A stretch of DNA of 64,000 bases from Bacteroidales bacterium. GTDB taxonomy: Bacteria; Bacteroidota; Bacteroidia; Bacteroidales; UBA932. Shown here one piece after another: positions 1-20,737 of the stretch. The notes beneath the pieces were generated by a model. It was not told where the DNA came from, made no database searches, and worked only from the letters and a program-made list of their open reading frames with translations. The position numbers were made by a program, and so were the translations under genes. The stretch is taken from positions 42,790-106,789 of the forward strand of contig JAGCVJ010000014.1 of NCBI GenBank assembly GCA_017962375.1. Direction: 5' to 3'. Each line of letters begins with the position of its first letter. Positions within the stretch are counted from its first letter, which is position 1.

Positions 1-1870
1 TCTGAGGATTGGCAGCCCAAGTCTTCCCTCGGTCCTCAAAGCTTGCCATTTCCATAGGATCAGGACTGTATGGTCCCGGGATAGCCTCGCTGCTTCCCAT
101 CGTTGATGCATACAGCGGATATGCCACCCAAAGGCAGGTGTACATGCTGTACTGGTACATGTATGTATAATTGCGGTCTCCGTCTGCAAAGAAGGTGCTT
201 GTGAAGTAGTCTGAGCCTGTTTGAGATGCCGGAAGCTCAAGCCAACCGTTGATTGCCTGGCTTCCACCTTCTCCAGGTTCCTGGCTTACTGCAAGTTCTA
301 CAGAAGATGCTCCTGTATAATTAAGCGTAATGGTGCCGGTCCTTGAATTGGCGCCCGCTGCCTGTGCCGCTACATTAAACGTTATGTTATTGCCGCTTAC
401 TGCAACATTGGTTATCCAGGAAGCATTTGAAGTTGCTGTCAGAGTTACTCCCGATACCGGATTTGTAATCGTATAGCTTGCTGTCTGCGAACCGCCGGCC
501 TTACCTACCACTACAGGGTTGGAGGAGGTGATGCTGATGGCAGGGCCTGTCGGGCCAGATCCCTCCGCGATATACAGAGCCACAGGCTTCTGGCTGGAAG
601 TGTAGCAGCAGAATCGCGGGCTGCTCTGATTGTACTGGAGGGTTCTTGTTGTGGCATTGCCGCAGGCAATCGTAGCCACTCCGCTGCTGATGGAAATGTT
701 CCAGTTATAAGCATCTGCCTGCTCTATGCTGGTATTGCCACTATCCCAGGCCAGATAATTGCCGTAATTGACATCGCCGGATTTATCGTTCTGGATAGTC
801 CAGGAACTTCCATTCTTCTTTAACTTGACAGGAAGCACAGTACTTGTATTGTCCAACACGATAGTATTGCCTGTCTTGGTGATATTTTCACTAGTATGGA
901 TTGTTCCGCTCAAGCCCCCCATGGCTTTATCGAATCCGGAAGCGGCGATGATATAAGTTCCTTCAACCAGGCCGGACTGATTCTGTACCAGAGTATAGGT
1001 TACCGACGTGGAAACCGGAGTTGCATAGCCGCTCATGTTCATTCCGAATCTCGTCATCTTGCCGATCGAGAAGCTCAGAGTTCCTGAGAAGGCGCTTTCA
1101 GGCTTGGTATATGTGTTCTGGTCCGTTGAAACCACCACGCTTGAGAAACCAGCATTCTCTACCGGCATCGCTGTGAAATAAACAGGGAAAGTTCCGTCAG
1201 AAGGAACAACGGCATCGTCATAATTCAACGTTATCTTCTTGCCTCCGTTGGCATAAGTTCCAGCATCGTCGCCAGAAACCACATAATAACCGGTGACTAT
1301 CTTGTCGAATGTAACCTCAACTCTCTTGATTTTCTCGCCCGGAACAAGGCCTTTCAACGTCATCTTGTTAACGGTAATGATTCTCTGCATCATGAACTGC
1401 AGCGAGTTAAGAGCCGTAGCGGATGTTATTTCATCGGTTATCATTCCATCTGCATCCGGGTCATAGGAAGACTCTCCAGGGCTCTGAGTATCCTGAATCT
1501 TTATGTTTCCCTTGTTGCTGAATTCCTTGGCAAACCTTGCCGAATAAACATATTCGTCAGCCTGTACAGTAGCAAACTCCACTGTAAGGTCGATTCTTTT
1601 CATATCGGCGCTATAGTCAATTTCGGTAATGGTTCCCAAAGTCCCGTTCTCATAAATCCTGAAGTATTCGTCATCGCCTTCAGACCAAACATATGAAGCT
1701 TTGTCGTCTCCTTCAACCAATGACGTTTTGGTGTCTGCACCCTTGGTAAAAGAAACCTTGACAGTCCTCTTGTAAACCTCCGGCTGAGGTTCAGACTTGT
1801 CCTTTGCGCATCCCAGCAGCATCGCTGAGACAGCTGCTATCAAACCTATTTTGCAAAATATTCTTTTCAT
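1..1870 (-). CDS. Surface lipoprotein A, 3-prime end cut by window edge: pilin-like N-domain, shared mid module, BACON-like Ig domain, then start of a DNA/RNA non-specific endonuclease-like domain
   Basis: Hand translation from the ATG at 1868-1870 gives MKRIFCKIGLIAAVSAMLLGCAKDKSEP (lipobox LLGC). The frame stays open to position 1, so there is no stop and the ORF is absent from the track. Mid module ends RTLQYNQSSPRFCCYTSSQKPVALYIAEGSG. BACON-like stretch: GGSQTASYTITNPVSGVTLTATSNASWITNVAVSGNNITFNV..RTGTITLNY. The last residues, INGWLELPA..DRNYTYMYQYSMYTCLWVAYPL, resemble the N-terminal part of Endonuclease_NS lipoproteins. Confidence 0.6.
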   Translation of the reverse strand, partial: MKRIFCKIGLIAAVSAMLLGCAKDKSEPQPEVYKRTVKVSFTKGADTKTSLVEGDDKASYVWSEGDDEYFRIYENGTLGTITEIDYSADMKRIDLTVEFATVQADEYVYSARFAKEFSNKGNIKIQDTQSPGESSYDPDADGMITDEITSATALNSLQFMMQRIITVNKMTLKGLVPGEKIKRVEVTFDKIVTGYYVVSGDDAGTYANGGKKITLNYDDAVVPSDGTFPVYFTAMPVENAGFSSVVVSTDQNTYTKPESAFSGTLSFSIGKMTRFGMNMSGYATPVSTSVTYTLVQNQSGLVEGTYIIAASGFDKAMGGLSGTIHTSENITKTGNTIVLDNTSTVLPVKLKKNGSSWTIQNDKSGDVNYGNYLAWDSGNTSIEQADAYNWNISISSGVATIACGNATTRTLQYNQSSPRFCCYTSSQKPVALYIAEGSGPTGPAISITSSNPVVVGKAGGSQTASYTITNPVSGVTLTATSNASWITNVAVSGNNITFNVAAQAAGANSRTGTITLNYTGASSVELAVSQEPGEGGSQAINGWLELPASQTGSDYFTSTFFADGDRNYTYMYQYSMYTCLWVAYPLYASTMGSSEAIPGPYSPDPMEMASFEDRGKTWAANPQ

Positions 1871-1880
1871 GGCAGACATT

Positions 1881-2003
1881 TTAAAAATCACCTTCATCAT
1901 CGTAATCGTCGTCCGGAATAGTATTAGTACTCTGGGCAATGCAATTTTCTGTGCAAACGGCAAAGACCCTGCACTTTGGAACGGAGTATTTCTCCCGCTC
2001 CAT
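1881..2003 (-). CDS. Small acidic ORF A-prime (40 aa), 10 nt upstream of lipoprotein A
   Basis: Hand translation: MEREKYSVPKCRVFAVCTENCIAQSTNTIPDDDYDDEGDF. Shares the Y-x-x-P-x-C-[KR]-V-[YF] core and an acidic aromatic C-terminus with the other cassette ORFs. No signal peptide. Confidence 0.5.
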   Translation of the reverse strand: MEREKYSVPKCRVFAVCTENCIAQSTNTIPDDDYDDEGDF

Positions 2004-2137
2004 TTTGTTAAGGCAAATTAATTTCATCAATTAAAAAATTCTTTTTCCGACCCCAATCACTCAAAATCTGGCCCCGCAAAGTGATGCAAGTTAACAAAAA
2101 ATTCTTTTGGTTCTTTCTTTTCTCAGCCCCAGAAACA

Positions 2138-2171
2138 AAGAAGTCCGGAACCTGATTGTTTCGGACTTCTT
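2138..2171 (-). terminator. Hairpin downstream of lipoprotein B
   Basis: AAGAAGTCCG, a 14-nt loop, then CGGACTTCTT. On the minus strand it is followed by TGTTTCT, a weak U-tract. Confidence 0.45.
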
Positions 2172-2193
2172 GCATCACGACAAAAATCGTGTT

Positions 2194-4029
2194 TTATTTA
2201 GGAGCGCCAGCTCCAGCCTGGGCAATATACAGAAGAACTTCCTCTGTATTCTGCCAAACTCCGTCTACCATATTATAGCAGTAGAACAACTGCATATAGC
2301 CGCTTCTGCCAGAGCTTGAAGTATTCTGAGGAAGAGTAATAGTAAGTGTTCCCGTATTTCCAGATACTGAGTTGCTGGTAGTAAGAGGAATATTATAAGT
2401 AGAAACAGGACCCGACTGCGGCTGGATCTCTCCGTCAGCAGCTGGATACTTGATCTCGTAAGTAACGGTATAGGTACCGCCTGCTGCAGGCAGATACATT
2501 GTGTTGCCTACATAAACCATCGGCTCATATCCTGAAGGAGTGTTGACTCCTGAGGTGAAACGGAATTCAGGAACCGGAACAATTAGCGGATCACCTTCGC
2601 CAGTGCCTTCAAGTTTGTAGATTGCCAACGCTTCTGAAGCCAAGAAGGCATTGTCCATAAAGAATTCTTTATTATTATGATGATAACTCAGATACTTAAA
2701 TCGGCTCGCAGTATTATACGGGGTCATAAAGGCTTCGCCGTTTTCTTCCAGATGAACTTCCCAGCTAATGCCCTTCTCAGTCTCAGTAGAAGAACAGTTA
2801 TACAAATAAGTCCACTGGCTATAGTTGGAGCTAGGAGAAGAAGTTATCAAGGCGCCAATATACTTGTTGGCAAACTCCCCATTCTTGCACTCGAGCATAA
2901 CTGTATTCTTGCCGCTTCCCTTCTTCAGGGTGAATACCTGAACATCATCGCCAGGATTCTCGATAGTGGCCTTGTCTGAACTCTTAACGATATCAGCCTC
3001 TTTTCTCCAAGGGTAAGACCACATTTCTGTTGCCATTGCCTTGTCGTAAACGGTTGACGCAATCACGAACTCAGAGCCTGCGGTAAGCTCAGAATAATCG
3101 GTGACAAGCTTATACTGCAGAGGCTCTGGAGTGATGCCGCTCATGTTGAGATTGAAGGATGCAACCTGTCCCATCTTGAAATTGCCCTTTCCAGAAGGGA
3201 ATGTAACTTCCTTGGTGAAAACTCCTGCATCGGTCTTAACCTTTACAGTAAGTGTCTTGCCTTCCAGGTTTACAGGAAGAACTGAGAACCAGAACACCTT
3301 GCTGGCGTTGCTCTCTGCAGAAAGCTTGGAAGGATTGAGAGTCAGATACTTGTTCTGCTCAAATCCACCGGTGTAATACTCGTTTTCAGGATACATGGAG
3401 TTTCCTGTCAGGTACTCGGTAGAAGAAAGCTCAATGCTCTTGATGGTAACATCCTCAGGGAAGTTCTTGAGCATGAATTTTCCGTATGCTGCAATGTGGG
3501 AGAACTTGAGAGTTATCTTCTCAGGCATTGCGTTGGCAACAATAGCATGGTCAAGCGATGCAAACAGAATATGCGCTGCCTCATCGACAGATGTCATAGT
3601 AGGAGTCTGCTCCGAAGGAACTGCAAATCCCAATCCCCATCCGCCGTTATTTCCTGTGAAAGCGGTAGCAGGACTGACAGCCTGAAGCCAAAGCTCTGTG
3701 TCATCCTGTGGAAGATTGCTGAACTGAGCGTCAAAAGAAGCGGTTTTGCCGTCTCCTGAAGGAATGACGGTTGCCTCGTCAGACCAGTTTACGTTCAAGC
3801 TGAAGATAACCTTAACTTTCTGGTCTGCAGACCATACGGTTGGATAACCCTCAGATGTCTTGTCGCCGAAGTAAGTCTTTGTAGAAGGCTCCTGGGTCTG
3901 GGCGTTGAAGCTGATTTTAACAGCCTGCCTTTCCTGCTCTTTTGCAAGAGGAGAACTATCCTTGCTGCAGCTGATGAATGAAGTTGCAACTACTGCAACT
4001 ACTGCGAATAAACTGAAATACTTTCTCAT
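2194..4029 (-). CDS. Modular surface lipoprotein B: pilin-like N-domain, mid module, Ig/BACON-like C-terminus
   Basis: ORF track, 611 aa. Lipobox FISC followed by SKDSS. N-domain is paralogous to C, D and E (FSHIAAYGKFMLKNFPE, SNASKVFWFSV, FPSGKGNF). Mid module ends ALAIYKLEGTGEG. Confidence 0.85.
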   Translation of the reverse strand: MRKYFSLFAVVAVVATSFISCSKDSSPLAKEQERQAVKISFNAQTQEPSTKTYFGDKTSEGYPTVWSADQKVKVIFSLNVNWSDEATVIPSGDGKTASFDAQFSNLPQDDTELWLQAVSPATAFTGNNGGWGLGFAVPSEQTPTMTSVDEAAHILFASLDHAIVANAMPEKITLKFSHIAAYGKFMLKNFPEDVTIKSIELSSTEYLTGNSMYPENEYYTGGFEQNKYLTLNPSKLSAESNASKVFWFSVLPVNLEGKTLTVKVKTDAGVFTKEVTFPSGKGNFKMGQVASFNLNMSGITPEPLQYKLVTDYSELTAGSEFVIASTVYDKAMATEMWSYPWRKEADIVKSSDKATIENPGDDVQVFTLKKGSGKNTVMLECKNGEFANKYIGALITSSPSSNYSQWTYLYNCSSTETEKGISWEVHLEENGEAFMTPYNTASRFKYLSYHHNNKEFFMDNAFLASEALAIYKLEGTGEGDPLIVPVPEFRFTSGVNTPSGYEPMVYVGNTMYLPAAGGTYTVTYEIKYPAADGEIQPQSGPVSTYNIPLTTSNSVSGNTGTLTITLPQNTSSSGRSGYMQLFYCYNMVDGVWQNTEEVLLYIAQAGAGAPK

Positions 4030-4036
4030 TTTAATT

Positions 4037-4042
4037 TCCTCC
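4037..4042 (-). promoter_or_regulatory. Shine-Dalgarno-like GGAGGA, 7 nt before the ATG of lipoprotein B
   Basis: Minus strand reads CTTTAAAATCAGAGGAGGAAATTAAAATG. The stop of the small ORF lies 8 nt upstream of the GGAGGA. Confidence 0.5.
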
Positions 4043-4049
4043 TCTGATT

Positions 4050-4187
4050 TTAAAGATCACCCCAGTCCTCTTCTGGTGAAGGGTCAACCTCGTCGCCTGA
4101 GCTCATTGTGGCGATAGTGCCCTCTAATTTAACGGAATACACTTTGCAAAAAGGCTTAGCATATTCCTCTCTCTTGTGTGTTATCAT
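4050..4187 (-). CDS. Small acidic ORF B-prime (45 aa)
   Basis: MITHKREEYAKPFCKVYSVKLEGTIATMSSGDEVDPSPEEDWGDL. This is the 3-prime part of track ORF 4050..4286. The internal ATG at 4187 is preferred because of homology with D-prime and E-prime, and because the promoter-like box lies downstream of the longer start. Confidence 0.6.
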   Translation of the reverse strand: MITHKREEYAKPFCKVYSVKLEGTIATMSSGDEVDPSPEEDWGDL

Positions 4188-4255
4188 AATTGTTATACGT
4201 ATAATAATATATTTTTCAACTAGTATTCTTCGCAGAAAATCGCGAAAAAGCGGCG

Positions 4256-4264
4256 CAAAGTTTA
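4256..4264 (-). promoter_or_regulatory. Imperfect Bacteroidetes -7-like box (TAAACTTTG) upstream of B-prime
   Basis: Minus strand CTAAACTTTGCGCCGCTTTTTCG. The context matches the box upstream of D-prime (GCTAACTTGCGCCGCTTTTTTCG). Confidence 0.4.
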
Positions 4265-4272
4265 GAATAAAA

Positions 4273-4310
4273 GTCCAAAAAAGCAAGAGCTCGGCGCAAT
4301 ACCGAGCTCT
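4273..4310 (-). terminator. Intrinsic terminator of lipoprotein C
   Basis: AGAGCTCGG, a 7-nt loop, then CCGAGCTCT. Followed on the minus strand by TGCTTTTTTGG. Lies 32 nt after the stop codon. Confidence 0.75.
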
Positions 4311-4341
4311 ATTCCATTTAGAAATCTCAAAAAGAGGTAAG

Positions 4342-5664
4342 TTAGTTCTCGTAGGTTACATCGATATTGTAAGCCTTAACTCCACTGTAAATGTTAGTAA
4401 CAATTATTGTTAAAACTTTTCCTGTTTCTACTGTCGTTGAACTAACAGTCACATCAGGCGTACCCCAAAGTGATCCGCTTCCTACAGCAGTGTCACCTAC
4501 CTTCAAGGTTATTAAGCCATCCGTATCATCGTCAACTCCGCCCAATTTGATAGATAGACTCTTAATTTTTGCAGATCTCTCAAGCGTCGTGGTAAATGTT
4601 ATTGAGCCGGCAGCCCAATGCTCATCGCCAATAATGCTGAAATCAGTCTCCTGATCATAATCAGGGTTCTGAGTAGTGGTAATAGTCCAAGTATTTCCCT
4701 GGCTATCATTACCCGTAACTGTAGCTGCATTAATCTTGGTGCGACCGGTTCCGCTGCCAAATTGAATCGTTGCTGTCTTTTCAACAAGAGGCATTTCGAT
4801 AGTGAATGAAGCAACCCTTCCGGCCTGGAAATTACCTTTTTCTGCAGGGAAAGTGATGGTCTTAACATAATCCCCTACATTGGTGTGTACAGTAACTTTC
4901 AGGTTCTTGCCCTGCAGATCAACAGGCTTAACAGCAAACCAGAAAACTTTGCTTGCATTGCTCTCGGCAGATATCGCTGAGACATTAAGGCTAATAGTCT
5001 TAGAAGCGGTTTTATCTGCATAAGTTCCAGTTGCAGGATAGAAATAAACACTTCCTGCAATATTCTCGTCTGCCTCAAGGTCAATGCCAGAGATTGTTAC
5101 ATCCTCAGGGAAATCTTTGAGTGTAAATCTTCCGTAAGCCGCAATGTGAGAGAAAGAAAGAGATACATTATCAGGGAAAGTAGTAAATGTTGCAGACTTG
5201 GCGGCCATAATGTGAGCAGCTTCATCTACAGAGCTCATGGTCGGAGTCTGAGTTGCAGGAAATACAACTTCAACACGACTAGATGCAGCTTCCCAGGAAC
5301 TAGCGGCTACAGCTGGGCTGAGAGCATAGAACACATAGTTTCCACTGCCATCATCTGTGACCTCAGCATTGAAAGTAGCAGTCTTGCCGTCTGCAGAAGG
5401 AGTTACATCTGCCTGAACGGCATTGGCATAGTTAAGAGCAACGCTAACCTTCTGGGTTGAAGTCCAAATAGTTGGATAACCTGACGAAGTCTTGTCACCG
5501 AATTGAGTCTTAGTAGCTGGGTTAGAAGATTTAGCAATGAAGGTTACCTTTTTGGCTATAGAATCTGAAAGATTCTCCACATCTTCATTTTTGCTGCAAC
5601 TTGCCACAGTCAATCCAGCAACGGCTGCAAGGCATAAAAAACTAAAAAACTTGTTCATTTTCAT
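4342..5664 (-). CDS. Modular surface lipoprotein C: pilin-like N-domain plus a short C-terminal beta-rich module, no mid module
   Basis: ORF track, 440 aa. Lipobox VASC followed by SKNEDVEN. N-domain close to D (SVDEAAHIMAAKSATF, LKVTVHT, TITFPAEKGNFQAG). The GGAGGA position favours the second ATG at 5658. Confidence 0.85.
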   Translation of the reverse strand: MKMNKFFSFLCLAAVAGLTVASCSKNEDVENLSDSIAKKVTFIAKSSNPATKTQFGDKTSSGYPTIWTSTQKVSVALNYANAVQADVTPSADGKTATFNAEVTDDGSGNYVFYALSPAVAASSWEAASSRVEVVFPATQTPTMSSVDEAAHIMAAKSATFTTFPDNVSLSFSHIAAYGRFTLKDFPEDVTISGIDLEADENIAGSVYFYPATGTYADKTASKTISLNVSAISAESNASKVFWFAVKPVDLQGKNLKVTVHTNVGDYVKTITFPAEKGNFQAGRVASFTIEMPLVEKTATIQFGSGTGRTKINAATVTGNDSQGNTWTITTTQNPDYDQETDFSIIGDEHWAAGSITFTTTLERSAKIKSLSIKLGGVDDDTDGLITLKVGDTAVGSGSLWGTPDVTVSSTTVETGKVLTIIVTNIYSGVKAYNIDVTYEN

Positions 5665-5670
5665 TCCTCC
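5665..5670 (-). promoter_or_regulatory. Shine-Dalgarno-like GGAGGA before lipoprotein C
   Basis: Minus strand TTTAAAATTATGGAGGAATGAAAATGAAC. The spacing fits the second ATG. Confidence 0.45.
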
Positions 5671-5676
5671 ATAATT

Positions 5677-5733
5677 TTAAAGATCATCCCAGTCTTCTTC
5701 TGGTGAAGGGTCAACTTCGTCGCCAGAGCTCAT
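5677..5733 (-). pseudogene. Truncated small ORF C-prime: only the conserved 18-codon tail remains (MSSGDEVDPSPEEDWDDL)
   Basis: The tail is near-identical to B-prime, D-prime and E-prime. The upstream in-frame sequence (..DSSLTLCHFSASVA) has lost the EEY..P.C.VYS half. It may still be translated from its own ATG. Confidence 0.35.
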
Positions 5734-5757
5734 AGCAACACTGGCGGAAAAGTGACA

Positions 5758-5765
5758 CAAAGTTA
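5758..5765 (-). promoter_or_regulatory. Exact TAnnTTTG -7 box (TAACTTTG), 24 nt upstream of the C-prime ATG
   Basis: Minus strand TTTAACTTTGTGTCACTTTTCCGCC. Confidence 0.5.
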
Positions 5766-5800
5766 AAGAAGAGTCAACTAAAATTGCAAATCACAGTAAA

Positions 5801-5831
5801 ACAAAAAACGGGCAGGATTTTGTCCTGCCCG
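5801..5831 (-). terminator. Intrinsic terminator of lipoprotein D
   Basis: CGGGCAGGA, a 5-nt loop, then TCCTGCCCG. Followed on the minus strand by TTTTTTGTTTT. Confidence 0.8.
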
Positions 5832-5856
5832 CCCTAAAAGTACTATTCGAAAAAAA

Positions 5857-7956: not shown

Positions 7957-7962
7957 TCCTCC
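7957..7962 (-). promoter_or_regulatory. Shine-Dalgarno-like GGAGGA before lipoprotein D
   Basis: Minus strand TTTAAAATTATGGAGGAATGAAAATGAAAAAG. Confidence 0.45.
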
Positions 7963-7968
7963 ATAATT

Positions 7969-8112
7969 TTAAAGATCACCCCAGTCTTCTTCTGGTGAAG
8001 GGTCAACTTCATCGCCAGAGCTTAAAGTAGCAATGGTGCTCTCGAAATTTACGGAATACACTCTGCAAACTGGAGCAGTGTACTCCTTTTCCGTGTTAAA
8101 ATTGAACTTCAT
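7969..8112 (-). CDS. Small acidic ORF D-prime (47 aa)
   Basis: Hand translation: MKFNFNTEKEYTAPVCRVYSVNFESTIATLSSGDEVDPSPEEDWGDL. Confidence 0.6.
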   Translation of the reverse strand: MKFNFNTEKEYTAPVCRVYSVNFESTIATLSSGDEVDPSPEEDWGDL

Positions 8113-8163
8113 TTTTATAAATATGTATTATTATTTTTGTTCGATTAGGTCGAAAAAAGCGGC

Positions 8164-8171
8164 GCAAGTTA
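8164..8171 (-). promoter_or_regulatory. Imperfect -7-like box (TAACTTGC) upstream of D-prime
   Basis: Minus strand GCTAACTTGCGCCGCTTTTTTCG. Context conserved with the B-prime box. Confidence 0.35.
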
Positions 8172-8264
8172 GCATAATAAATTTGACACTTCCAAATTTT
8201 TTGGCGGAAAAACTCAAAAAATACCACTCAGCGGTGCATTACAGGCCTGTTTTGTAACATCTAT

Positions 8265-8302
8265 GACAAAAACAAAAGCGGGCAGGAATATCCCGCCCGC
8301 TT
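8265..8302 (-). terminator. Intrinsic terminator of lipoprotein E
   Basis: AAGCGGGCAGG, a short loop, then CCCGCCCGCTT (one mismatch). Followed on the minus strand by TTTTGTTTTTGTC. Confidence 0.75.
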
Positions 8303-8324
8303 AAATGCTAATACGTTCCAGAAT

Positions 8325-11246
8325 CTATTCGGCATTAACTCCCCAAACTACAAAACGTTTCCCTGTTGTTGCTGTAAGAGTCAATTGCTTATCCTGAGTC
8401 ATACCAGAAAGCGATATCTCAAAATAGTAATTTGCAGGTGCTCCACTCAAAGTAAATGGAGTATTATTACTGATTCCAGCATCACTAGTCAAAGACAAAA
8501 CAGATGGTGTTGCATCAACACCAGACAAAGTAATCTTGACTGTTTCGTTATTCCAAGCAGCGATATGAACATGAAGTTTGGTTGTTCCAGAAGGAACAGT
8601 AATTATCATTGCGCCAGCCTTACTGCTTGTTCCACACTTTATTGCATTATATTCGGTATTTGAAATAACAACTTTTGCTGCAGTTGCACTAGTTCCACCG
8701 CTAGTGCTTAGTGTTACATTACTTGTATTAATATCAGAATAATCCCCACCTGCCTCTGAGTCAAACCTTGCTGCTATAGAAACATCTGACGTTCCCATAG
8801 TGAAAGTAGCAGTTTCAGTGTTTCCGCTTACGGTAGCTCCAGAAACTGTCCAGCTAGTAAAGTTGTAGCCAGAAGCTGGAGTTGCAGTAAGGGTAACTAC
8901 TGTACCTTCCAAAACTTCAGTTCCTGAAGATATGGCAGAACCATTAACCTTTACGGTGAATGAGCCTCCAGCTGATGGCTGAGTAAATGTAACAGCATGT
9001 GCAGTAGGAGTATGGGCTTGGGTAATGGTAATGCCATCGGTAGACCAAACCTTTATCTGGTCATTGTTGTTATACCATGCTATAGTTCCCACTGCAGTAA
9101 TAACATCTCCTTCGGCAAGTCCGGAAGGAACTCCTGCGGCAGCATAAACCACATATGTATTGCTTCCATTCTTGACAGAAATGTTCTTATCGTTAATTCC
9201 GGTCACCTCAAGGTCATTGACCTGAACATATGCACTCTGATATGTACTGAGATTCCCAACAAGCTGAGAGAGTGTGAATACCTGAGGAGCTACCGTTGCC
9301 TGCGAACCGGTAAAGTTGGCAGTCAGGGCTGTGATTTCAGCACAATTGTGGTACATCGTAGCTGTTACGGTTATTGGACCTGACAATGTCTGACCCTGTA
9401 GCAAACCATGATCTGTTACAAAAACCAATGTAGAACCTGTAGCGTCTTTGATTACTGCATTCTTTGTATCAGGAACAAATGAAATTACTGCATTGGTAAG
9501 AGTTCCGGAATAATCACCTGCAGTAGCTGCCAGAGCGTTGAGTTGGGCAACTGTGGTGAAATCTGAACCAGGAGTGCTTACTTCACACTCTTTCTCTGCG
9601 ATATCACTCATGTTATAACCTGGAGCTCCGGCAAATGCCTTGACTGTGCAAGTTTCAGTGATTGTAAACGGCTCAGTATATTCCTGAGTAGTTCCGATAG
9701 GATTACCGTCATCATCGATACCAGGAGTAGTTCCATCAGTGGTATAGCCGATTCTTGCACCTGATGCGGAGCAAGTGATGGTAACGGTATTCGTTGAAGA
9801 ATTGAACGATATTTCTGGAGTTGGACACTTAGGATCATCAATCAGAGATGAGCCTTCTCCACTTCCTTCGAGTACATATACAACAACTTCCTTCTGACCA
9901 GAAGCATAGCAAGAGAAGATTGGAGGATTATTGCCGCTATTGTATTTAATAATATTACGAGTATTTTCCCCGCTAGCTTTCAATACGGTATAACCATCCT
10001 CAATTGTTACGCTGAAAGAAGCATTTCCATCCTTGGTGTCCTGACTCTTAAGATAATTTGAACCAGAACTTGCAGCATAAATATACTTATCTGTCTGATC
10101 ACCGTTTACGCACTTGAATGCAACTGTGTTGGATTCAGTACCGGCCTCAAGAGTGAATATCTGAACAGCATCGCCAGGATTGGTAATAGTTTTAAGATCT
10201 TCGCTCTTATCAACATCAGTATGAGCTCTATTATTACCATTCTGAGTAGTGCTCATTGCTTTTGCATAATCCTTAGCAACAATTATTGCCTTTGCACCAG
10301 GAAGCAATTGCTTCTTGTCAGTGAGGATTTTATAAACCTTGTCTTCTCCAGGAGTGATGCCTGCCATGCTGATTGTAAATGTAGCAACTTTTCCAGCCAG
10401 GAAGTTACCCTTACCGGTAGGGAATGTGATGGTCTTTGCATATACTCCAGCATCTGTATGAACAGCAACCTTAAGAGTCTTACCCTCCAGATTTACAGGC
10501 TTAAATGAAAACCAGAAATCGGTGGTGTTATTCTTATCTATCTCAAGGTCTGAAACATCAAGATTAACGCTGTTGCCAGCAGAATTTACTTCATAAGACC
10601 CGTCTGAAGGTTTGAAACGGAATCTTCCTGCAACCTGCTCCTGTGCGGTAAGCTCAATGCTGTTGATTGTAACAGTTTCAGGCAGGTTCCTGAACTGGAA
10701 CTTACCATAAGCAGCAATGTGAGAGAAAATCAGTGTAACAGGAGTAGTCTCCTCTGGGAACTCAGAGAATGTAGCTGACTTGGCCGCCATTATATGAGCC
10801 TTTTCATCAACGGAATTCAGGGTTGGTTTCTGTGATGCTGGGAAGTCAACCTGAACGTTGCTGTTATCTGCATTTGCATTCCAGTTTATCACTGAAGCAG
10901 CAGGGCTTAAGGCATAGAAAACATAACTATCCTGTCCGTCATCTTCAATGGTAGCATTGAAAGTAGCGGTTTTACCATCTGAGCTAGGAGTTACCTCTGC
11001 CTGCTTAGCAGAACCGAAGTTAAGGGAAATGCTAACCTTCTCGTTTTCTGTCCAAACGGTAGGATAACCAGCATCTGTCTTGTCGCCGAAAGCGGTCTTG
11101 GTGGAAGGATTGGAAGCCTTTGCACTGAAAGAGATCTTCTTTACAGATTTTTCAGGAAGGTTCTCAACAGTCTCGTTTTTGCTGCAGCTTGCCAGTGTCA
11201 GACCAGCTATGGCAGCAAGGCATAAGTAATTAAAGAACTTTTTCAT
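8325..11246 (-). CDS. Modular surface lipoprotein E, the largest: pilin-like N-domain, mid module, CHB_HEX_C-like segment, OB-fold-like (DUF5689-type) module, InlB-B-repeat-like module, C-terminal module
   Basis: ORF track, 973 aa. Lipobox LASC followed by SKNETVEN. Segments: ARIGYTTDGTTPG..TVKAFA; DFTTVAQLNAL..VIKDATGS..IKVWSTDGITI; HAVTFTQPSAGGSF..GYNFTSWTVSGATVSGN. Confidence 0.85.
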   Translation of the reverse strand: MKKFFNYLCLAAIAGLTLASCSKNETVENLPEKSVKKISFSAKASNPSTKTAFGDKTDAGYPTVWTENEKVSISLNFGSAKQAEVTPSSDGKTATFNATIEDDGQDSYVFYALSPAASVINWNANADNSNVQVDFPASQKPTLNSVDEKAHIMAAKSATFSEFPEETTPVTLIFSHIAAYGKFQFRNLPETVTINSIELTAQEQVAGRFRFKPSDGSYEVNSAGNSVNLDVSDLEIDKNNTTDFWFSFKPVNLEGKTLKVAVHTDAGVYAKTITFPTGKGNFLAGKVATFTISMAGITPGEDKVYKILTDKKQLLPGAKAIIVAKDYAKAMSTTQNGNNRAHTDVDKSEDLKTITNPGDAVQIFTLEAGTESNTVAFKCVNGDQTDKYIYAASSGSNYLKSQDTKDGNASFSVTIEDGYTVLKASGENTRNIIKYNSGNNPPIFSCYASGQKEVVVYVLEGSGEGSSLIDDPKCPTPEISFNSSTNTVTITCSASGARIGYTTDGTTPGIDDDGNPIGTTQEYTEPFTITETCTVKAFAGAPGYNMSDIAEKECEVSTPGSDFTTVAQLNALAATAGDYSGTLTNAVISFVPDTKNAVIKDATGSTLVFVTDHGLLQGQTLSGPITVTATMYHNCAEITALTANFTGSQATVAPQVFTLSQLVGNLSTYQSAYVQVNDLEVTGINDKNISVKNGSNTYVVYAAAGVPSGLAEGDVITAVGTIAWYNNNDQIKVWSTDGITITQAHTPTAHAVTFTQPSAGGSFTVKVNGSAISSGTEVLEGTVVTLTATPASGYNFTSWTVSGATVSGNTETATFTMGTSDVSIAARFDSEAGGDYSDINTSNVTLSTSGGTSATAAKVVISNTEYNAIKCGTSSKAGAMIITVPSGTTKLHVHIAAWNNETVKITLSGVDATPSVLSLTSDAGISNNTPFTLSGAPANYYFEISLSGMTQDKQLTLTATTGKRFVVWGVNAE

Positions 11247-11252
11247 TTTAAT

Positions 11253-11258
11253 TCCTCC
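11253..11258 (-). promoter_or_regulatory. Shine-Dalgarno-like GGAGGA, 6 nt before the ATG of lipoprotein E
   Basis: Minus strand TTTAAAATTTACAGGAGGAATTAAAATGAAAAAG. Confidence 0.5.
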
Positions 11259-11266
11259 TGTAAATT

Positions 11267-11410
11267 TTAAAGATCACCCCAGTCTTCCTCTGGTGAAGGG
11301 TCTACCTCGTCGCCAGAACTCATAGTAGTAATGGCGCCTTCCAAATTGATAGAGTATACTTTGCACTGTGGTGCAAGATACTCTTCTGATTTGATGAACT
11401 TGAGTTGCAT
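11267..11410 (-). CDS. Small acidic ORF E-prime (47 aa)
   Basis: Hand translation: MQLKFIKSEEYLAPQCKVYSINLEGAITTMSSGDEVDPSPEEDWGDL. Starts only 35 nt after the stop of lipoprotein F, with no hairpin between them. Confidence 0.6.
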   Translation of the reverse strand: MQLKFIKSEEYLAPQCKVYSINLEGAITTMSSGDEVDPSPEEDWGDL

Positions 11411-11445
11411 TGTGTCTGTTATTTAATTTTTAGCTAAAAATATAA

Positions 11446-13611
11446 TTATTCAAATGTAACCTTGATGCCCTTAATACGTCTGTGTCCTGTAGTTCCGGTT
11501 ACTGTAAATGTAACAGCGCTAGAAGATCCAGTCCAAACACCAGTAGAATTATTATAAGTTACAACATCAGTAGAAATAGCATTTGATCCGTCACCAGAAC
11601 CGAAGGTAAGCTCAATCATGCTTATCTTCTTGCTAGAGTCGTTAGCGGTAACAGTGAAGTAGCCGCCACCGTAAACTCTTACAGCAGTTCCTGTAGTGTA
11701 GTATTTAGGAGTGTTGCTGTTGGTACCCTTGTCAAATGTGACAGTTGCATTGGTGCCTGTTACGGTCTTTACTTCCTGTGCATTTGAATAACCTGTAGAC
11801 AAGTCAAAGGTCTCGGTGAGAACGCTTGAAGACTCAAGGTTAGCTACAATGTTGATGTCAGCAGTACCTACCTTGAAGGTTACAACATGGGAAGTGGTGC
11901 TGCTGAGATTTACTGCATTGGTAATGCTCCAGGTGGTGAAGTTATAACCGCCAGTCAATACTATCTCGGCCTTTACTTCAGTGCCTTCAATATACTTGGC
12001 GCCTGAAGTGATTTCAGTTCCGCCAACAGTTACTTTGATAGAACCGCCGGCTTCCGGCTGGGTAAAGTTGATGGCGTGCTCTGTTGGAGTGTGCTCGGTA
12101 ATGGTTAAGTCATCAGCCTTCCAAACCTTGAGCTCTTTGAATACAGTATCGTCCTTCTTAAACTGTGTAACGGTTCCGATTACTGTAATCTTATCACCTA
12201 CAACACAGGTTGGAGTGCCATAGTTGCAGTATACGATGAAACCGGTATACTCTCCATCTGTAACGGTAACGTTCTTTCCATCAACAGCAGTAACTTCAAC
12301 ATTTTCAAGCTTAGCGTATGTGTTCTGATAAGTATTATACTGCCAGCCCATATTGAAGATAGTCAATACCTGAGGATCAACTACAGCGCCTTCACCAGTG
12401 AATGTGGCATCCATGGTGGTGATCTCAGAATAGAGGCTCTGGTAATTCTGGAGGGTAACTGTGATGTTGCCGGTATAGGTCTGGCCCTGCTTCAAGCCGT
12501 GGCCGGACTTGTAGTACATAACTGAACCTGTTCCGTCTGTAATGATGGCAACAGTAGTATTAGGAACAAATGAAACAACTGCATTGGTGAGCTTACCTGT
12601 CTTGGATGTTGGGGTTTCGCCAACTTCATCAGCAAGTTCGTTGAGCTCTGCAACAGTTGTGAAGTCGAAAGTTTCGAGAGTCTTGTCGTAAGCGAAAGCT
12701 ATCTTCTTCATCTTGCCAGCCTTGAACTCATAGTCCTTGTCTGCAGAGATAACCTTTTCCTGAGCTCCGTTGGATGCGGTAACGGTGATGGTGAAGTCAT
12801 CGCCTTCGTTAACAACGAAAGGCTTAACTGCAAGATAGAAAGTGGCCTTTTCGCCTGCTGCTATTGCCTCGCCGCTGTTTACAACCAGGTTAGCTACGTT
12901 GCTTACATAGGTTTCGCCGCTTGGGGTGAAGCCAGGATTGTAAGGATCTGTGAAATCGATGTAGTAGGTACCTACGATATCAACTCCGTCGGCTGTGATG
13001 GAAATGCCGGAAACTGTAATAGCTTCTCCTTTCTTTGTAGCGTTCTCAACCTCAACCTCAATAAGAGAGGAAAGATGCCTCATCTGGATAACAGGCCTTT
13101 CGTCGCCAGAAATTTTAGATGCTACACCTGCGATAGGATAGTTGTTGCCGGAAATATGAGCAGTGCTGTTGTTGCCCTTCTGAGTCTGGTTGCCCTTTGC
13201 GGTGGATCCTACAGTCACATAACCTGCAGATGTGTTGGCAGGAGTGGTGATCTGCTTTGTGTAAGGATAGAAAGCGTACCAGTTGTAGGTCTTGGTTTCA
13301 TCAAAGCTGGCATCAAGGGTTCCTGTGAAGGTGGCGGTTGCGCCTGCAGCTGATGTCTTGAACTGGCCGTCGCTGACATAAGCAGGAGTATCCTCGCCAG
13401 CAACATTGTGGAACAGGTTGATAGCGTCATTGGCAGCCCACAGCGTCTTCATGCCGTCATTGGTGGTCTTGGTGTTGACGCCGTTAAGAGTTACTGAGAA
13501 ATCGGTCTTCTCGATTTCCTTCATTCCGGTATCGTTCTTAGAACATCCGGTGAATGCAATGGCAGCTACTGCCAAAGCACTCAAAACGTAAGATTTGAAT
13601 TTCTTTGTCAT
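11446..13611 (-). CDS. Modular surface lipoprotein F: divergent pilin-like N-domain, OB-fold-like module, InlB-B-repeat-like module, C-terminal module
   Basis: ORF track, 721 aa. Lipobox FTGC followed by SKNDTG. Segments: NTKTTNDGMKTLWAANDAINLF, YAFYPY, MRHLSSLIEVEV; FTTVAELNEL..AIITDGTGS..LKVWKADDLTI; HAINFTQPEAGGS..GYNFTTWSI; C-terminus PKYYTTGTAVRVYGGG. Confidence 0.85.
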   Translation of the reverse strand: MTKKFKSYVLSALAVAAIAFTGCSKNDTGMKEIEKTDFSVTLNGVNTKTTNDGMKTLWAANDAINLFHNVAGEDTPAYVSDGQFKTSAAGATATFTGTLDASFDETKTYNWYAFYPYTKQITTPANTSAGYVTVGSTAKGNQTQKGNNSTAHISGNNYPIAGVASKISGDERPVIQMRHLSSLIEVEVENATKKGEAITVSGISITADGVDIVGTYYIDFTDPYNPGFTPSGETYVSNVANLVVNSGEAIAAGEKATFYLAVKPFVVNEGDDFTITVTASNGAQEKVISADKDYEFKAGKMKKIAFAYDKTLETFDFTTVAELNELADEVGETPTSKTGKLTNAVVSFVPNTTVAIITDGTGSVMYYKSGHGLKQGQTYTGNITVTLQNYQSLYSEITTMDATFTGEGAVVDPQVLTIFNMGWQYNTYQNTYAKLENVEVTAVDGKNVTVTDGEYTGFIVYCNYGTPTCVVGDKITVIGTVTQFKKDDTVFKELKVWKADDLTITEHTPTEHAINFTQPEAGGSIKVTVGGTEITSGAKYIEGTEVKAEIVLTGGYNFTTWSITNAVNLSSTTSHVVTFKVGTADINIVANLESSSVLTETFDLSTGYSNAQEVKTVTGTNATVTFDKGTNSNTPKYYTTGTAVRVYGGGYFTVTANDSSKKISMIELTFGSGDGSNAISTDVVTYNNSTGVWTGSSSAVTFTVTGTTGHRRIKGIKVTFE

Positions 13612-13622
13612 AACTGCTGATT

Positions 13623-13775
13623 TTAAGCATTCATAGGATCACCATCGTCTTCCCAGTCATCAATTGTGCCGTCTCCGCTGGCACAGATAATTCCCTCTGA
13701 CTCGAGGTCCAGGAATTCGATCTCAGGAGTCTCATAGAACTCCTTGATTCTCTGAACAGTAAAGTTTTTCTTCAT
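13623..13775 (-). CDS. Small acidic ORF F-prime (50 aa)
   Basis: Hand translation: MKKNFTVQRIKEFYETPEIEFLDLESEGIICASGDGTIDDWEDDGDPMNA. Stop lies 11 nt before the ATG of lipoprotein F. Confidence 0.5.
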   Translation of the reverse strand: MKKNFTVQRIKEFYETPEIEFLDLESEGIICASGDGTIDDWEDDGDPMNA

Positions 13776-13834
13776 AATATGTTAATGTTGTAATAATTCT
13801 ACTGCGCTCCGGGGGCAATACCCCATAGAGCATT

Positions 13835-13842
13835 CAAAGTTA
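13835..13842 (-). promoter_or_regulatory. Exact TAnnTTTG -7 box (TAACTTTG) upstream of F-prime, at the head of the array
   Basis: Minus strand TTCATAACTTTGAATGC, 59 nt upstream of the F-prime ATG. A short GGGG..CCCC hairpin lies in the leader. Confidence 0.5.
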
Positions 13843-13989
13843 TGAAATAAAACAATACTCTACGAGTATTTTTTCAAGAAAACGCAAAAAAAGTTCAGCT
13901 TTTGAGGAAAAAGCGGAAATGAGAAGGAAAAAAGATGAAAGATGATAAAAGTAAGGAAGAAGGAAGGGCGTGGAGATAAAGAGGCGGTA

Positions 13990-14487: not shown

Positions 14488-14503
14488 CTGCGTTGGGTTT
14501 AGG

Positions 14504-15394: not shown

Positions 15395-15400
15395 TTGCTG

Positions 15401-17668: not shown

Positions 17669-17686
17669 TGTTGCAGACTATAGCCG

Positions 17687-19078: not shown

Positions 19079-19146
19079 CTGTTATACTTTTTTCAACTAT
19101 TATCTTTTTCTCAGCGACGGCTTCATCTGCCGCCTCTGCCGCCAGG

Positions 19147-20637: not shown

Positions 20638-20737
20638 GACGAGCGTATTGTTATTCCAACAAACAATAATTTGGCGAATATACTCAATTCTGCCCAAACG
20701 CCCAAAAACAACTTTCAGTTGAAGTTCAAAAACCGTC

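What the first reader, a model, noticed from the sequence alone, without database searches (positions are those of the whole stretch)
1..13860. Six tandem cassettes: promoter box, small acidic ORF, modular pilin-like surface lipoprotein, terminator
Reading the minus strand from about 13842 down to position 1, the same unit recurs six times: F-prime/F, E-prime/E, D-prime/D, C-prime/C, B-prime/B, A-prime/A.

Each large gene encodes a lipoprotein (lipobox Cys) with a fimbrillin/type-V-pilin-like N-domain. B-E are clear paralogs, sharing FSHIAAYGKF, SNASKVFWF and TITFP.GKGNF. A and F are distant versions of the same pattern.

Each large gene is preceded, at 10-20 nt, by an 18-50-codon ORF. That ORF encodes a very acidic product with no signal peptide.

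No enzyme, transporter, regulator or mobile-element gene is interleaved in the array. Hand counts on single 60-nt lines give about 38-48 percent G+C inside the array, against about 55-57 percent in the adjacent core genes.

I do not recognise this pairing as a described system.
Basis: partly seen in the sequence, partly recalled or inferred. Interest (0 to 1): 0.9.

Follow-up and report, generated by a model that had tools for sequence, protein, structure and literature searches.

The report
Small acidic protein paired with pilin-like lipoprotein
A rumen Bacteroidales genome carries six tandem gene pairs, each joining an unannotated ~45-residue acidic protein to a pilin-like surface lipoprotein; the pairing recurs in nearly all related loci examined, is under purifying selection, and matched no family in Pfam, NCBIfam or PDB sequences.

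Summary
On the minus strand of 1-13860 lie six lipoprotein genes (A-F). Five are preceded by an intact 40-50-codon acidic ORF, and C by an 18-codon remnant. The ORF stop lies 1-20 nt before the lipoprotein start.

The N-domain has the FimA/Mfa type V pilin fold (AF2 pLDDT 83.5; Foldseek top hits are Bacteroidales FimA-family structures). The C-terminal modules vary: a beta-trefoil, Ig-like domains, an InlB-B-repeat, BACON and, in A, the start of an Endonuclease_NS nuclease.

The small ORFs are real genes. Median dN/dS is 0.15, and an exhaustive HMM search found 73 clusters of proteins, all 34-121 aa. They share a Y-x-x-P...E-G-x-I-x-x-S-G module, a variable linker and an acidic tail with a W, Y or F at or near the C-terminus. 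Neither Pfam, NCBIfam nor PDB sequences match them.

The pairing is robust. 31 of 32 homologous lipoprotein genes in other genomes and metagenomes have such an ORF directly upstream. 8 of 9 diverse small-ORF representatives precede a fimbrillin-like lipoprotein.

C' is a decaying relic. Gene A carries an enzyme domain.

The function is not shown. My best inference is a dedicated cytoplasmic partner of the lipoprotein's N-terminal part, made by translational coupling. The main rival is a cis-acting leader ORF.

The parts
1..1879 (-). Gene A (partial, runs off the window start). Lipoprotein with a fimbrillin-like N-domain, a beta-trefoil M domain, BACON (aa 488-541) and the beginning of an Endonuclease_NS domain.
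   Evidence: From residue 261 onward it is 68% identical to the 830-aa PF01223 protein of L001.
1881..2003 (-). Small ORF A' (40 aa, pI 4.07): MEREKYSVPKCRVFAVCTENCIAQSTNTIPDDDYDDEGDF. Its stop lies 1 nt before the ATG of A.
   Evidence: (HMM E 1.7e-17).
2087..2093 (-). Promoter-like box TAACTTG (near the Bacteroidetes -7 consensus TAnnTTTG) upstream of A'.
   Evidence: The consensus is from my own knowledge.
2138..2171 (-). Terminator-like hairpin plus T-run after gene B.
   Evidence: (I4) and the sequence.
2194..4029 (-). Gene B, a 611-aa lipoprotein: fimbrillin-like N-domain, beta-trefoil M domain and an unassigned C-terminal region.
4050..4187 (-). Small ORF B' (45 aa). A GGAGG element lies at 4038-4042, between its stop and the ATG of B.
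   Evidence: (E 3e-19).
4256..4264 (-). Promoter-like box TAAACTTTG upstream of B'.
4286..4310 (-). Terminator-like hairpin after gene C.
4342..5664 (-). Gene C, a 440-aa lipoprotein: fimbrillin-like N-domain plus a C-terminal domain.
5677..5733 (-). C', an 18-codon remnant (MSSGDEVDPSPEEDWDDL) containing only the acidic tail. It is a decaying relic.
   Evidence: E 2.6e-5. It is disrupted in L008 and L039.
5758..5765 (-). Promoter-like box TAACTTTG, placed where the first half of C' would be.
5805..5835 (-). Terminator-like hairpin after gene D.
5857..7956 (-). Gene D, a 699-aa lipoprotein. The N-domain (aa 1-299, window 7060-7956) was modelled as a FimA/Mfa-like fold. It is followed by the beta-trefoil M domain, Flg_new_2 and a C-terminal domain.
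7969..8112 (-). Small ORF D' (47 aa). It is identical to NCBI MBP5518155.1, a 'hypothetical protein' of a Bacteroidales MAG.
   Evidence: (E 5e-22).
8165..8171 (-). Promoter-like box TAACTTG upstream of D'.
8276..8302 (-). Terminator-like hairpin after gene E.
8325..11246 (-). Gene E, a 973-aa lipoprotein. Its modules are the N-domain, the beta-trefoil M domain (aa 299-468, window 9843-10352), Fn3_assoc/CHB_HEX_C_1, the unassigned X domain (aa 556-755), Flg_new_2 and a C-terminal domain.
11267..11410 (-). Small ORF E' (47 aa). Only 35 nt separate it from the stop of F, with no promoter box or terminator between them.
   Evidence: (E 3e-21).
11446..13611 (-). Gene F, a 721-aa lipoprotein: a divergent fimbrillin-like N-domain, the X domain (aa 310-517), an InlB-B-repeat-like region and a C-terminal domain.
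   Evidence: (N-domain HMM E 2.7e-75).
13623..13775 (-). Small ORF F' (50 aa, net charge -10). A 50-aa member of the same 90%-identity cluster is NCBI MBP5518158.1, a 'hypothetical protein'.
   Evidence: (E 8e-17).
13835..13842 (-). Promoter-like box TAACTTTG upstream of F'; this is the upstream end of the array.

Best explanation
**What is shown**
- This is an array, variable in copy number, of paralogous two-gene cassettes in a rumen Bacteroidales genome.
- Each cassette encodes a leaderless acidic protein of about 45 residues. It has three parts: an N-terminal module (Y-x-x-P-x-C/V-x-V-x-x-V/I/L-x-x-E-G-x-I-x-x-S-G), a linker of variable length, and an acidic tail with W, Y or F at or near the C-terminus.
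- The small gene's stop codon lies 1-20 nt before the start of a lipoprotein gene. That lipoprotein has the type V pilin (FimA/Mfa) fold in its N-terminal domain and interchangeable modules in its C-terminal part (beta-trefoil, Ig-like, InlB-B-repeat, BACON, nuclease).
- The two genes stay together across deep divergence, and the small protein is under purifying selection along its whole length.
- The unit 'small gene + signal peptide + N-domain' can be exchanged independently of the C-terminal cargo.

**What is inferred**
- The pair is co-transcribed from a Bacteroidetes-type promoter and translationally coupled. One small protein would then be made at the same mRNA just before each lipoprotein.
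- The small protein acts in the cytoplasm on the N-terminal part of its cognate pre-lipoprotein, meaning the signal-peptide region or the strand-complementing pilin-like domain. It would serve as a dedicated escort or holdase that keeps this beta-rich, polymerisation-prone domain export-competent until Sec translocation. This resembles the small acidic chaperones encoded next to type III secretion substrates.
- The lipoproteins themselves would be surface-displayed binding or enzyme proteins on a pilin-like stalk.
For: **The gene pair**
- Small-ORF HMM hits occur only at the six upstream sites in the window.
- Gaps range from -8 to +51 nt, mostly 1-20, and include overlapping stop/start pairs.

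**Coding and selected**
- Median dN/dS is 0.15. F' orthologues show 5-6 synonymous and 0 non-synonymous changes.
- pS/pN is 0.65/0.15 in the N-module and 0.43/0.06 in the tail.
- The family comprises 73 clusters at 50% identity, all 34-121 aa.

**Co-occurrence**
- From the large-gene side: 9 of 9 genome loci, 20 of 21 metagenome loci and 2 of 2 distant N+M homologues.
- From the small-gene side: 8 of 9 diverse representatives precede a lipoprotein with a lipobox and the TK/R...W N-terminal motif.
- These loci include Alistipes and Tidjanibacter genomes.

**The link is to the N-terminal part, not the cargo**
- Partner lipoproteins carry many different C-terminal domains.
- Window A and the L001 nuclease lipoprotein share 68% identity only from residue 261 onward. 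The L001 protein has a different N-domain and no small ORF.

**N-domain fold:**

**The architecture of the small protein argues against a tunnel-geometry arrest peptide**
- The best-conserved part is 20-35 residues from the stop.
- The linker varies by roughly 5-25 residues, and 0-10 residues follow the aromatic residue.
Against: - No binding, localisation or expression data exist.
- At about 45 aa, half of it probably disordered, the protein is far smaller than known secretion chaperones.
- Some fimbrillin-like lipoprotein genes do without a small ORF. These are the L001 599-aa and 830-aa genes, the L007 647-aa gene, and gene C, whose C' is decaying.
- A profile-profile comparison of the small protein with the N-domain shows no strand mimicry.
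- Purifying selection and tight spacing fit the leader-ORF rival equally well.
Confidence: 0.35

Rival explanations
1. Cis-acting leader ORF. The small ORF exists to deliver or regulate ribosomes at the lipoprotein start codon, by termination-reinitiation in a class whose ribosomes ignore Shine-Dalgarno sequences. Its acidic, proline-containing tail (DEVDPSPEEDW, VPPTPEE) would act as a hard-to-translate nascent chain that tunes this coupling, like the Mg2+-sensing leader peptide MgtL, whose EPDPTP motif causes intrinsic ribosome destabilisation.
For: - The stop lies 1-20 nt before the start, or overlaps it, in essentially every pair.
- GGAGG lies between stop and start in 10 of 22 cassettes against 3 of 29 control genes, p=0.008. 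This is odd for SD-blind Bacteroidia (PMC7797042, PMC13000457).
- In 6 of 22 related loci a stem significantly more stable than shuffles joins the spacer to signal-peptide codons and encloses the start codon.
- The resemblance of the tail to the MgtL EPDPTP motif is from my own knowledge.
Against: - The most conserved part is the N-terminal module, at a variable distance from the stop. Selection acts on the whole peptide.
- The window cassettes show no start-site sequestration.
- Gene C persists while C' decays, and other family members have no small ORF.
- According to PMC10798248, even elongating F. johnsoniae ribosomes make little use of SD sequences.
Confidence: 0.25
2. RiPP-like or exported peptide. 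The N-module would be a leader recognised by a maturase or exporter encoded elsewhere, and the acidic tail would be the core peptide. Once outside the cell, the peptide could act with the lipoprotein, for example by occupying the donor-strand groove of the pilin-like domain.
For: - A profile built only from window-type sequences also finds P0099 (MEKKYEAPVVEVIRLETEDVITASG...CC...) at E 9e-4 library-wide.
- P0099 lies directly upstream of a radical SAM enzyme, PF04055 plus a 4Fe-4S domain.
- The N-module has a pattern of alternating hydrophobic residues that reads as beta-strand; this is my reading of the sequences.
Against: - There is no maturase, protease or transporter in or beside the array here, nor in any of the lipoprotein-linked loci.
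- The tail lacks the Cys/Ser/Thr pattern of known cores.
- There is no signal peptide or double-glycine leader.
- The P0099 match is borderline and is the only case of its kind.
Confidence: 0.1
3. DNA-mimic or immunity protein. The acidic protein would neutralise the nuclease (gene A) or nucleic-acid-binding domains before export, as NuiA, barstar and colicin immunity proteins do.
For: - Nuclease partners recur: window A, the L024 849-aa protein, and a separate Endonuclease_NS gene after the paired lipoprotein in L030.
- Tails such as DDDYDDEGDF resemble the acidic C-terminal tips of single-stranded-DNA-binding proteins; this comparison is from my own knowledge.
Against: - Most partners have no nuclease domain.
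- The L001 nuclease lipoprotein, whose C-terminal part is 68% identical to A's, has no small ORF.
- The M domain is a beta-trefoil, a fold that I associate with carbohydrate or ligand binding rather than DNA binding (the functional reading is mine).
Confidence: 0.04
4. The small ORFs are chance or non-coding. The conservation would then reflect a 5' UTR RNA element or gene conversion between cassettes.
For: - Nucleotide identity is high in the tail, spacer and signal-peptide stretch among B'-E'.
- Weak, sub-threshold Rfam hits occur near the terminators.
Against: - pS greatly exceeds pN in both halves.
- Distant members keep the amino-acid motif with different codons.
- No Rfam family reaches threshold.
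- Folding z-scores are inconsistent.
Confidence: 0.02

Closest known systems
Type V pilins and fimbrillin-like surface lipoproteins of Bacteroidales (FimA/Mfa superfamily; Pfam Mfa_like_1 PF13149; PDB 3ufi, 3t2l, 4k4k, Mfa2-4)
   Same: - Lipoprotein signal peptide.
- Two-lobed beta-sandwich fold.
- An invariant T-K just after the first beta-strand, at the position where, from my own knowledge, type V pilins are cleaved by an Arg/Lys-specific protease.
- Adhesin-like C-terminal extensions, as in tip pilins.
   Different: - No stalk or anchor pilin genes lie in the locus.
- The window proteins do not reach any Pfam pilin model.
- The long modular C-termini include a beta-trefoil and a nuclease.
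- To my knowledge, and, no small partner gene is described for the fim or mfa operons.
Dedicated secretion chaperones encoded next to their substrates (for example class I type III secretion chaperones)
   Same: Small, acidic and leaderless; encoded adjacent to an exported protein; associated with its N-terminal part; co-diverging with it.
   Different: - About three times smaller.
- There is no specialised secretion system; the partner is a Sec/lipoprotein substrate.
- No structural or binding evidence exists.
- The resemblance is functional analogy only, not homology.
Regulatory leader peptides and arrest peptides (MgtL, SecM, TnaC, SpeFL)
   Same: A short ORF in the leader of the regulated gene, a stop codon next to the downstream start, and an acidic, proline-containing C-terminal stretch.
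   Different: The conserved module is far from the stop and at variable spacing. The whole peptide is under selection. No conserved alternative RNA structure is present in the window.
Radical-SAM-modified RiPP precursor peptides
   Same: Similar size and a very similar N-terminal motif: Y-E-A-P-x-V-E-V-I-x-L-E-x-E-D-V-I-x-A-S-G.
   Different: No maturase lies nearby. The tail is acidic and aromatic instead of Cys-rich. The peptide is obligatorily coupled to a lipoprotein gene.

Membership tests
FimA/Mfa (type V pilin) superfamily - large genes | Lipoprotein signal peptide with a lipobox cysteine | tested here: met
   Cys at residue 21-24 in all six genes, preceded by a hydrophobic stretch.
FimA/Mfa (type V pilin) superfamily - large genes | Two-domain beta-sandwich fold matching solved FimA-family structures | tested here: met
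   AF2 model of D residues 1-299: pLDDT 83.5, pTM 0.79. The top 22 Foldseek PDB hits are all Bacteroidales FimA/Mfa-family proteins, E 2.6e-9 to 1e-4. TM-scores are only 0.35-0.50, so this is a distant member.
FimA/Mfa (type V pilin) superfamily - large genes | Match to a curated pilin sequence model (Pfam Mfa_like_1, P_gingi_FimA or similar) | tested here: not met
   No window protein matches at E <= 0.01. Only 2 of the 23 sequences in the N-domain alignment match PF13149, with best E 8.9e-9; one is homologue P0026.
FimA/Mfa (type V pilin) superfamily - large genes | Proteolytic removal of the N-terminal strand at a conserved Arg/Lys, followed by donor-strand polymerisation with stalk and anchor subunits | not testable with these tools
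   An invariant T51-K52 follows the first strand, which is compatible with cleavage. No stalk or anchor genes are in the window. Cleavage and polymerisation need experiment.
Regulatory leader / arrest peptide - small ORFs | Short ORF co-transcribed in the leader, ending next to the downstream start | tested here: met
   Gaps of 1-20 nt with no room for a terminator; the promoter box lies upstream of the small ORF. Transcription itself was not measured.
Regulatory leader / arrest peptide - small ORFs | Conservation concentrated in a C-terminal arrest motif at fixed distance from the stop, or in regulatory codons only | tested here: not met
   Y, P and E of the N-module are the invariant or near-invariant positions. 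The linker and post-aromatic lengths vary.
Regulatory leader / arrest peptide - small ORFs | Alternative mRNA structures that sequester the downstream start or form a terminator | tested here: inconclusive
   Not seen in the six window cassettes. It is significant in 6 of 22 cassettes overall, all in other loci.
RiPP precursor peptide - small ORFs | Adjacent maturase, recognition element, protease or exporter genes | tested here: not met
   None lies in or beside the array, nor in any lipoprotein-linked locus. Only P0099 has a radical SAM neighbour.
RiPP precursor peptide - small ORFs | Membership of a curated precursor family | tested here: not met
   No Pfam or NCBIfam family matches more than one of the 59 scanned family members, even at E <= 1.
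Endonuclease_NS (PF01223) extracellular nuclease - gene A | PF01223 domain | tested here: inconclusive
   The domain is cut off by the window start. The visible 80 residues align at high identity with the start of the nuclease region of a PF01223 protein and at 43% with that of the L024 849-aa protein.

The most novel reading that the evidence does not exclude
The small acidic proteins are a previously unrecognised component of the biogenesis of type V pilin-like surface lipoproteins in Bacteroidales. Each would be a dedicated, co-translationally supplied partner that binds the pilin-like N-domain or signal region of its cognate lipoprotein. Their production may exploit Shine-Dalgarno-assisted reinitiation in a class whose ribosomes are otherwise SD-blind.
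Probability: 0.25. Interest if true: 0.8.

Novelty: new variant of a known kind. Interest (0 to 1): 0.65.

Why it matters
Fimbrillin-like lipoproteins are among the most abundant and variable surface proteins of gut and rumen Bacteroidales. As far as I know, how they are kept export-competent, sorted to the surface and regulated is only partly understood.

This work defines a small-protein family that matched no curated family or paper I could search:
- 73 clusters at 50% identity;
- no Pfam or NCBIfam model;
- labelled 'hypothetical' or not called at all.

It is almost invariably welded to the 5' end of these genes and travels with their N-terminal domain. It therefore gives a concrete, genetically testable handle on that biology. 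The family occurs in Alistipes and Tidjanibacter MAGs as well as in uncultured rumen lineages.

It also shows that standard annotation misses a conserved partner gene, and that these arrays change copy number and swap modules. If the GGAGG elements are functional, the cassettes would be a rare case of SD use in Bacteroidia.

Tried and rejected
2. **Strand mimicry.** hhalign of the small-ORF profile against the N-domain profile gave nothing.
3. **Invertible promoters.** No inverted repeats flank the intergenic regions.
4. **Known RNA leaders or riboswitches.** Only sub-threshold Rfam hits appeared.
5. **Start-codon sequestration as a general mechanism.** It is not present in the window cassettes.
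6. **Stop-codon readthrough or frameshift fusion.** The gaps of 1, 11, 12, 19 and 20 nt have no consistent frame.
7. **Plasmid or phage origin.** tblastn of one small-ORF representative (P0079) found nothing.
8. **Sequence-level identification of the M domain.** Pfam and PDB sequence searches gave nothing; it was solved only by fold, as a beta-trefoil.
9. **Broad alignments for locus retrieval.** They were rejected as too divergent, so the genome and metagenome scans reached only fairly close relatives of the N-domain.
10. **PG1828 and BamJ NCBIfam hits.** These are weak matches to the N-terminal (signal-peptide) region only, far below cut-off.

Full report
**1. Observation**

The minus strand of 1-13860 carries six large ORFs: A 1879..1 (cut by the window start), B 4029..2194, C 5664..4342, D 7956..5857, E 11246..8325 and F 13611..11446. 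All begin with a lipoprotein signal peptide with Cys at residue 21-24, followed by an acidic stretch.

Upstream of each lies a short ORF on the same strand:
- A' 2003..1881
- B' 4187..4050
- C' 5733..5677
- D' 8112..7969
- E' 11410..11267
- F' 13775..13623

Their products have pI 4.05-4.5, net charge -5 to -10 and no signal peptide. The stop-to-start gaps are 1, 20, 12, 12, 20 and 11 nt. A family HMM, built from window and database members, hits these six sites and nothing else in the 64 kb. The five intact ORFs score E 1e-17 to 1e-22 and the C' remnant 2.6e-5.

G+C is 0.40-0.50 in the array against 0.53-0.58 next to it. The contrast is sharper at third codon positions, 0.33-0.52 against 0.63-0.75.

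**2.

- Promoter-like boxes (TAACTTTG, TAACTTG, TAAACTTTG) precede A', B', C', D' and F'. Terminator-like hairpins follow B, C, D and E.
- Only 35 nt separate F from E', with neither a box nor a hairpin. F-E'-E is probably one transcription unit.
- C' is an 18-codon remnant, because the promoter box replaces its first half. In the two closest relatives it has decayed to MSSGGEVDTSP* while gene C is intact.
- Gene A is not enzyme-free. From residue 261 to the window edge it is 68% identical to an 830-aa lipoprotein that carries Endonuclease_NS.
- The shared motif SNASKVFWF is missing from E.

**3. The large proteins**

Pfam finds only BACON (A), Flg_new_2 (D, E) and Fn3_assoc/CHB_HEX_C_1 (E); it finds nothing for the N-domains.

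An AF2 model of D residues 1-299 has pLDDT 83.5 and pTM 0.79. Its best PDB matches are Bacteroidales FimA/Mfa-family 'cell adhesion' proteins and Mfa2, Mfa3 and Mfa4, with E 2.6e-9 to 1e-4 and probability 1.0. A 36%-identical homologue carries Pfam Mfa_like_1 plus Lcl_C. The fimbrillin-like assignment is therefore supported by fold, although the TM-scores (0.35-0.50) mark a distant member. An invariant T-K follows the first strand, at the position where type V pilins are cleaved (own knowledge).

The domain after the N-domain in A, B, D and E has no Pfam or PDB sequence match. It models at pLDDT 97.4 as a beta-trefoil, with fascin, FRG1, IL-1, FGF, lysenin and ricin-B-type lectins as hits. Of the 119 homologue sequences retrieved, 103 contain it, and 91 have the same N-domain. 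E and F also share a 200-residue domain that I could not assign.

I read the large proteins as modular surface binding or enzyme proteins on a pilin-like base.

**4. The small proteins are real and form an undescribed family**

- Median pairwise dN/dS is 0.15. F' orthologues differ by 5-6 synonymous and no non-synonymous changes.
- Both halves are constrained at the protein level: pS/pN is 0.65/0.15 for the N-module and 0.43/0.06 for the tail.
- An exhaustive profile search of 1.84 billion representatives found 73 clusters at E <= 1e-3, all 34-121 aa.
- They share four features:
  - a basic N-terminus;
  - the module Y-x-x-P-x-C/V-x-V-x-x-V/I/L-x-x-E-G-x-I-C/A-x-S-G;
  - a Gly/Ser/Pro/Asp-rich linker of variable length;
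  - an acidic stretch with W, Y or F at or near the C-terminus.
- No Pfam, NCBIfam or PDB sequence matches.
- Where sources name them at all, they are 'hypothetical protein'.

**5. The pairing is the rule**

Retrieval by the lipoprotein N-domain:
- 9 of 9 genome loci have a family small ORF ending just before the gene. These are rumen Bacteroidales MAGs, an Alistipes and a Tidjanibacter.
- 20 of 21 metagenome loci do too; the exception is the C-type relic.
- Both distant N+M homologues that I looked up have one.

Retrieval by the small ORF:
- 8 of 9 diverse representatives precede a lipoprotein gene with a lipobox and the TK/R...W N-terminal signature, at -8 to +51 nt.
- These include a second, independent three-cassette array that also contains a nuclease fusion (L024) and cassettes in polysaccharide-utilisation-like and mobile-element contexts.
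- The ninth, P0099, has a Cys-rich C-terminus and precedes a radical SAM enzyme.

Limits of the rule:
- Not every fimbrillin-like lipoprotein has a small ORF.
- Orthologous loci at the same syntenic site hold four large genes rather than six, so the array varies in copy number.

**6. The small ORF is tied to the N-terminal part of its partner**

Partner lipoproteins carry many different C-terminal domains. Window A and the L001 nuclease lipoprotein share their C-terminal two-thirds, but they have different N-domains, and only A has a small ORF. The unit that moves is small ORF + signal peptide + N-domain.

**7. Mechanism**

Shown:
- adjacency and co-orientation;
- spacing compatible with translational coupling;
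- protein-level selection;
- linkage to the N-domain.

Inferred:
- co-transcription;
- coupling;
- any physical interaction.

I favour a dedicated cytoplasmic partner (escort or holdase) of the pre-lipoprotein's N-terminal part, for two reasons. First, the small protein looks like a binding module plus a flexible linker plus an acidic tail. It does not look like an arrest peptide, because its best-conserved part sits at a variable distance of 20-35 residues from the stop. Second, gene C survives the loss of C' while near-identical paralogues remain available in trans.

This remains an inference, with confidence 0.35.

The main rival is a cis-acting leader ORF (0.25). In its favour:
- the tight spacing;
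- a GGAGG element in 10 of 22 cassettes against 3 of 29 control genes, p=0.008, which is unusual because Bacteroidia ribosomes are blind to SD sequences (PMC7797042, PMC13000457, PMC10798248);
- stems enclosing the start codon in 6 of 22 related loci.

None of those stems is in the window cassettes.

A RiPP-like or exported peptide (0.10) rests on the P0099 lead only. A DNA-mimic inhibitor (0.04) and a non-coding element (0.02) are poorly supported.

**8. Comparison with known systems and novelty**

The large genes are new, distant members of the type V pilin-like lipoprotein superfamily. They are not shown to be pilus subunits: the locus has no stalk or anchor genes and the proteins do not match the Pfam pilin models.

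The small proteins belong to no curated family. Two literature searches aimed at small proteins or ORFs beside fimbrillin genes found no description of such a partner.

I therefore rate the finding as a new variant of a known kind, namely a pilin-like lipoprotein locus with a conserved, unannotated small partner gene. Interest is 0.65.

Noticed in passing
window 4038-4042, 5666-5670, 7958-7962, 11254-11258 (minus strand); also L010, L013, L016, L027: A GGAGG Shine-Dalgarno-like core lies between the small-ORF stop and the lipoprotein start in 10 of 22 cassettes, against 3 of 29 other genes in the window (Fisher p=0.008). In C and D its spacing fits the second ATG (MKM-KK...). This is unexpected in Bacteroidia, whose ribosomes are reported to ignore SD sequences.
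   Followed up: partly
L010 ~9000-9080, L013 ~8030-8110, L014 ~5960-6040, L015 ~5965-6045, L024 ~8615-8700, L030 ~7965-8050: In 6 of 22 cassettes the spacer just after the small-ORF stop pairs with codons ~10-15 of the signal peptide (dG -9 to -16 kcal/mol, p<0.05 against shuffles). The pairing encloses the lipoprotein start codon. The arm sequences differ between loci. This is not seen in the window cassettes.
   Followed up: partly
L020 1582-2647 (also L021): A 49-aa peptide, MEKKYEAPVVEVIRLETEDVITASG...GQCCAGMAAIDVG, has an N-terminal motif very like the small-ORF module. It sits upstream of a radical SAM / 4Fe-4S enzyme, so it is a probable RiPP precursor in what looks like a Firmicutes-type context. 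It may be a homologue or a convergent leader.
   Followed up: partly
window 9843-10352 (E aa 299-468); the same domain occurs in A, B and D: A beta-trefoil domain (AF2 pLDDT 97.4) with no Pfam model. It is present in 103 of the 119 homologue sequences retrieved, nearly always right after the pilin-like N-domain. It is an uncurated domain family.
   Followed up: partly
window 8982-9581 (E aa 556-755) and 12061-12684 (F aa 310-517): E and F share a ~200-residue domain at 44% identity, with no Pfam or PDB sequence match. 16 database homologues carry it. Its fold was not determined.
   Followed up: no
window 1-1100 versus L001 14215-16707: Module swap: window A and the L001 nuclease lipoprotein are 68% identical from residue 261 onward but have unrelated N-domains. 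Only the window version has a small ORF.
   Followed up: yes
window 5677-5733; L008 ~8200-8260; L039 ~370-410: C' is a truncated small ORF. In the closest relatives it has acquired non-synonymous changes and a premature stop (MSSGGEVDTSP*) while gene C stays intact.
   Followed up: yes
L017 212-841; L027 6766-7698; L022 7221-10692: Site-specific recombinase genes (Resolvase, Phage_integrase) lie immediately beside some cassettes. This suggests phase variation or mobility in those lineages. No inverted repeats flank the window promoters.
   Followed up: partly
window 13895-20697; L001 1-7282; L030 1138-7579: The array sits at a conserved chromosomal site beside DUF456, an OstA_2/LptD-like gene, a PpiD-type rotamase and IMPDH. 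Copy number differs between relatives (4 versus 6 large genes). A distant relative (L030) has one cassette plus a separate nuclease gene beside the IMPDH, rotamase and LptD-like genes.
   Followed up: partly
window 1-13894 versus 13895-64000: GC3 of the array genes is 0.33-0.52, against 0.63-0.75 for neighbouring genes. This is a much stronger contrast than total G+C, and suggests foreign origin or very different codon-usage constraints.
   Followed up: partly
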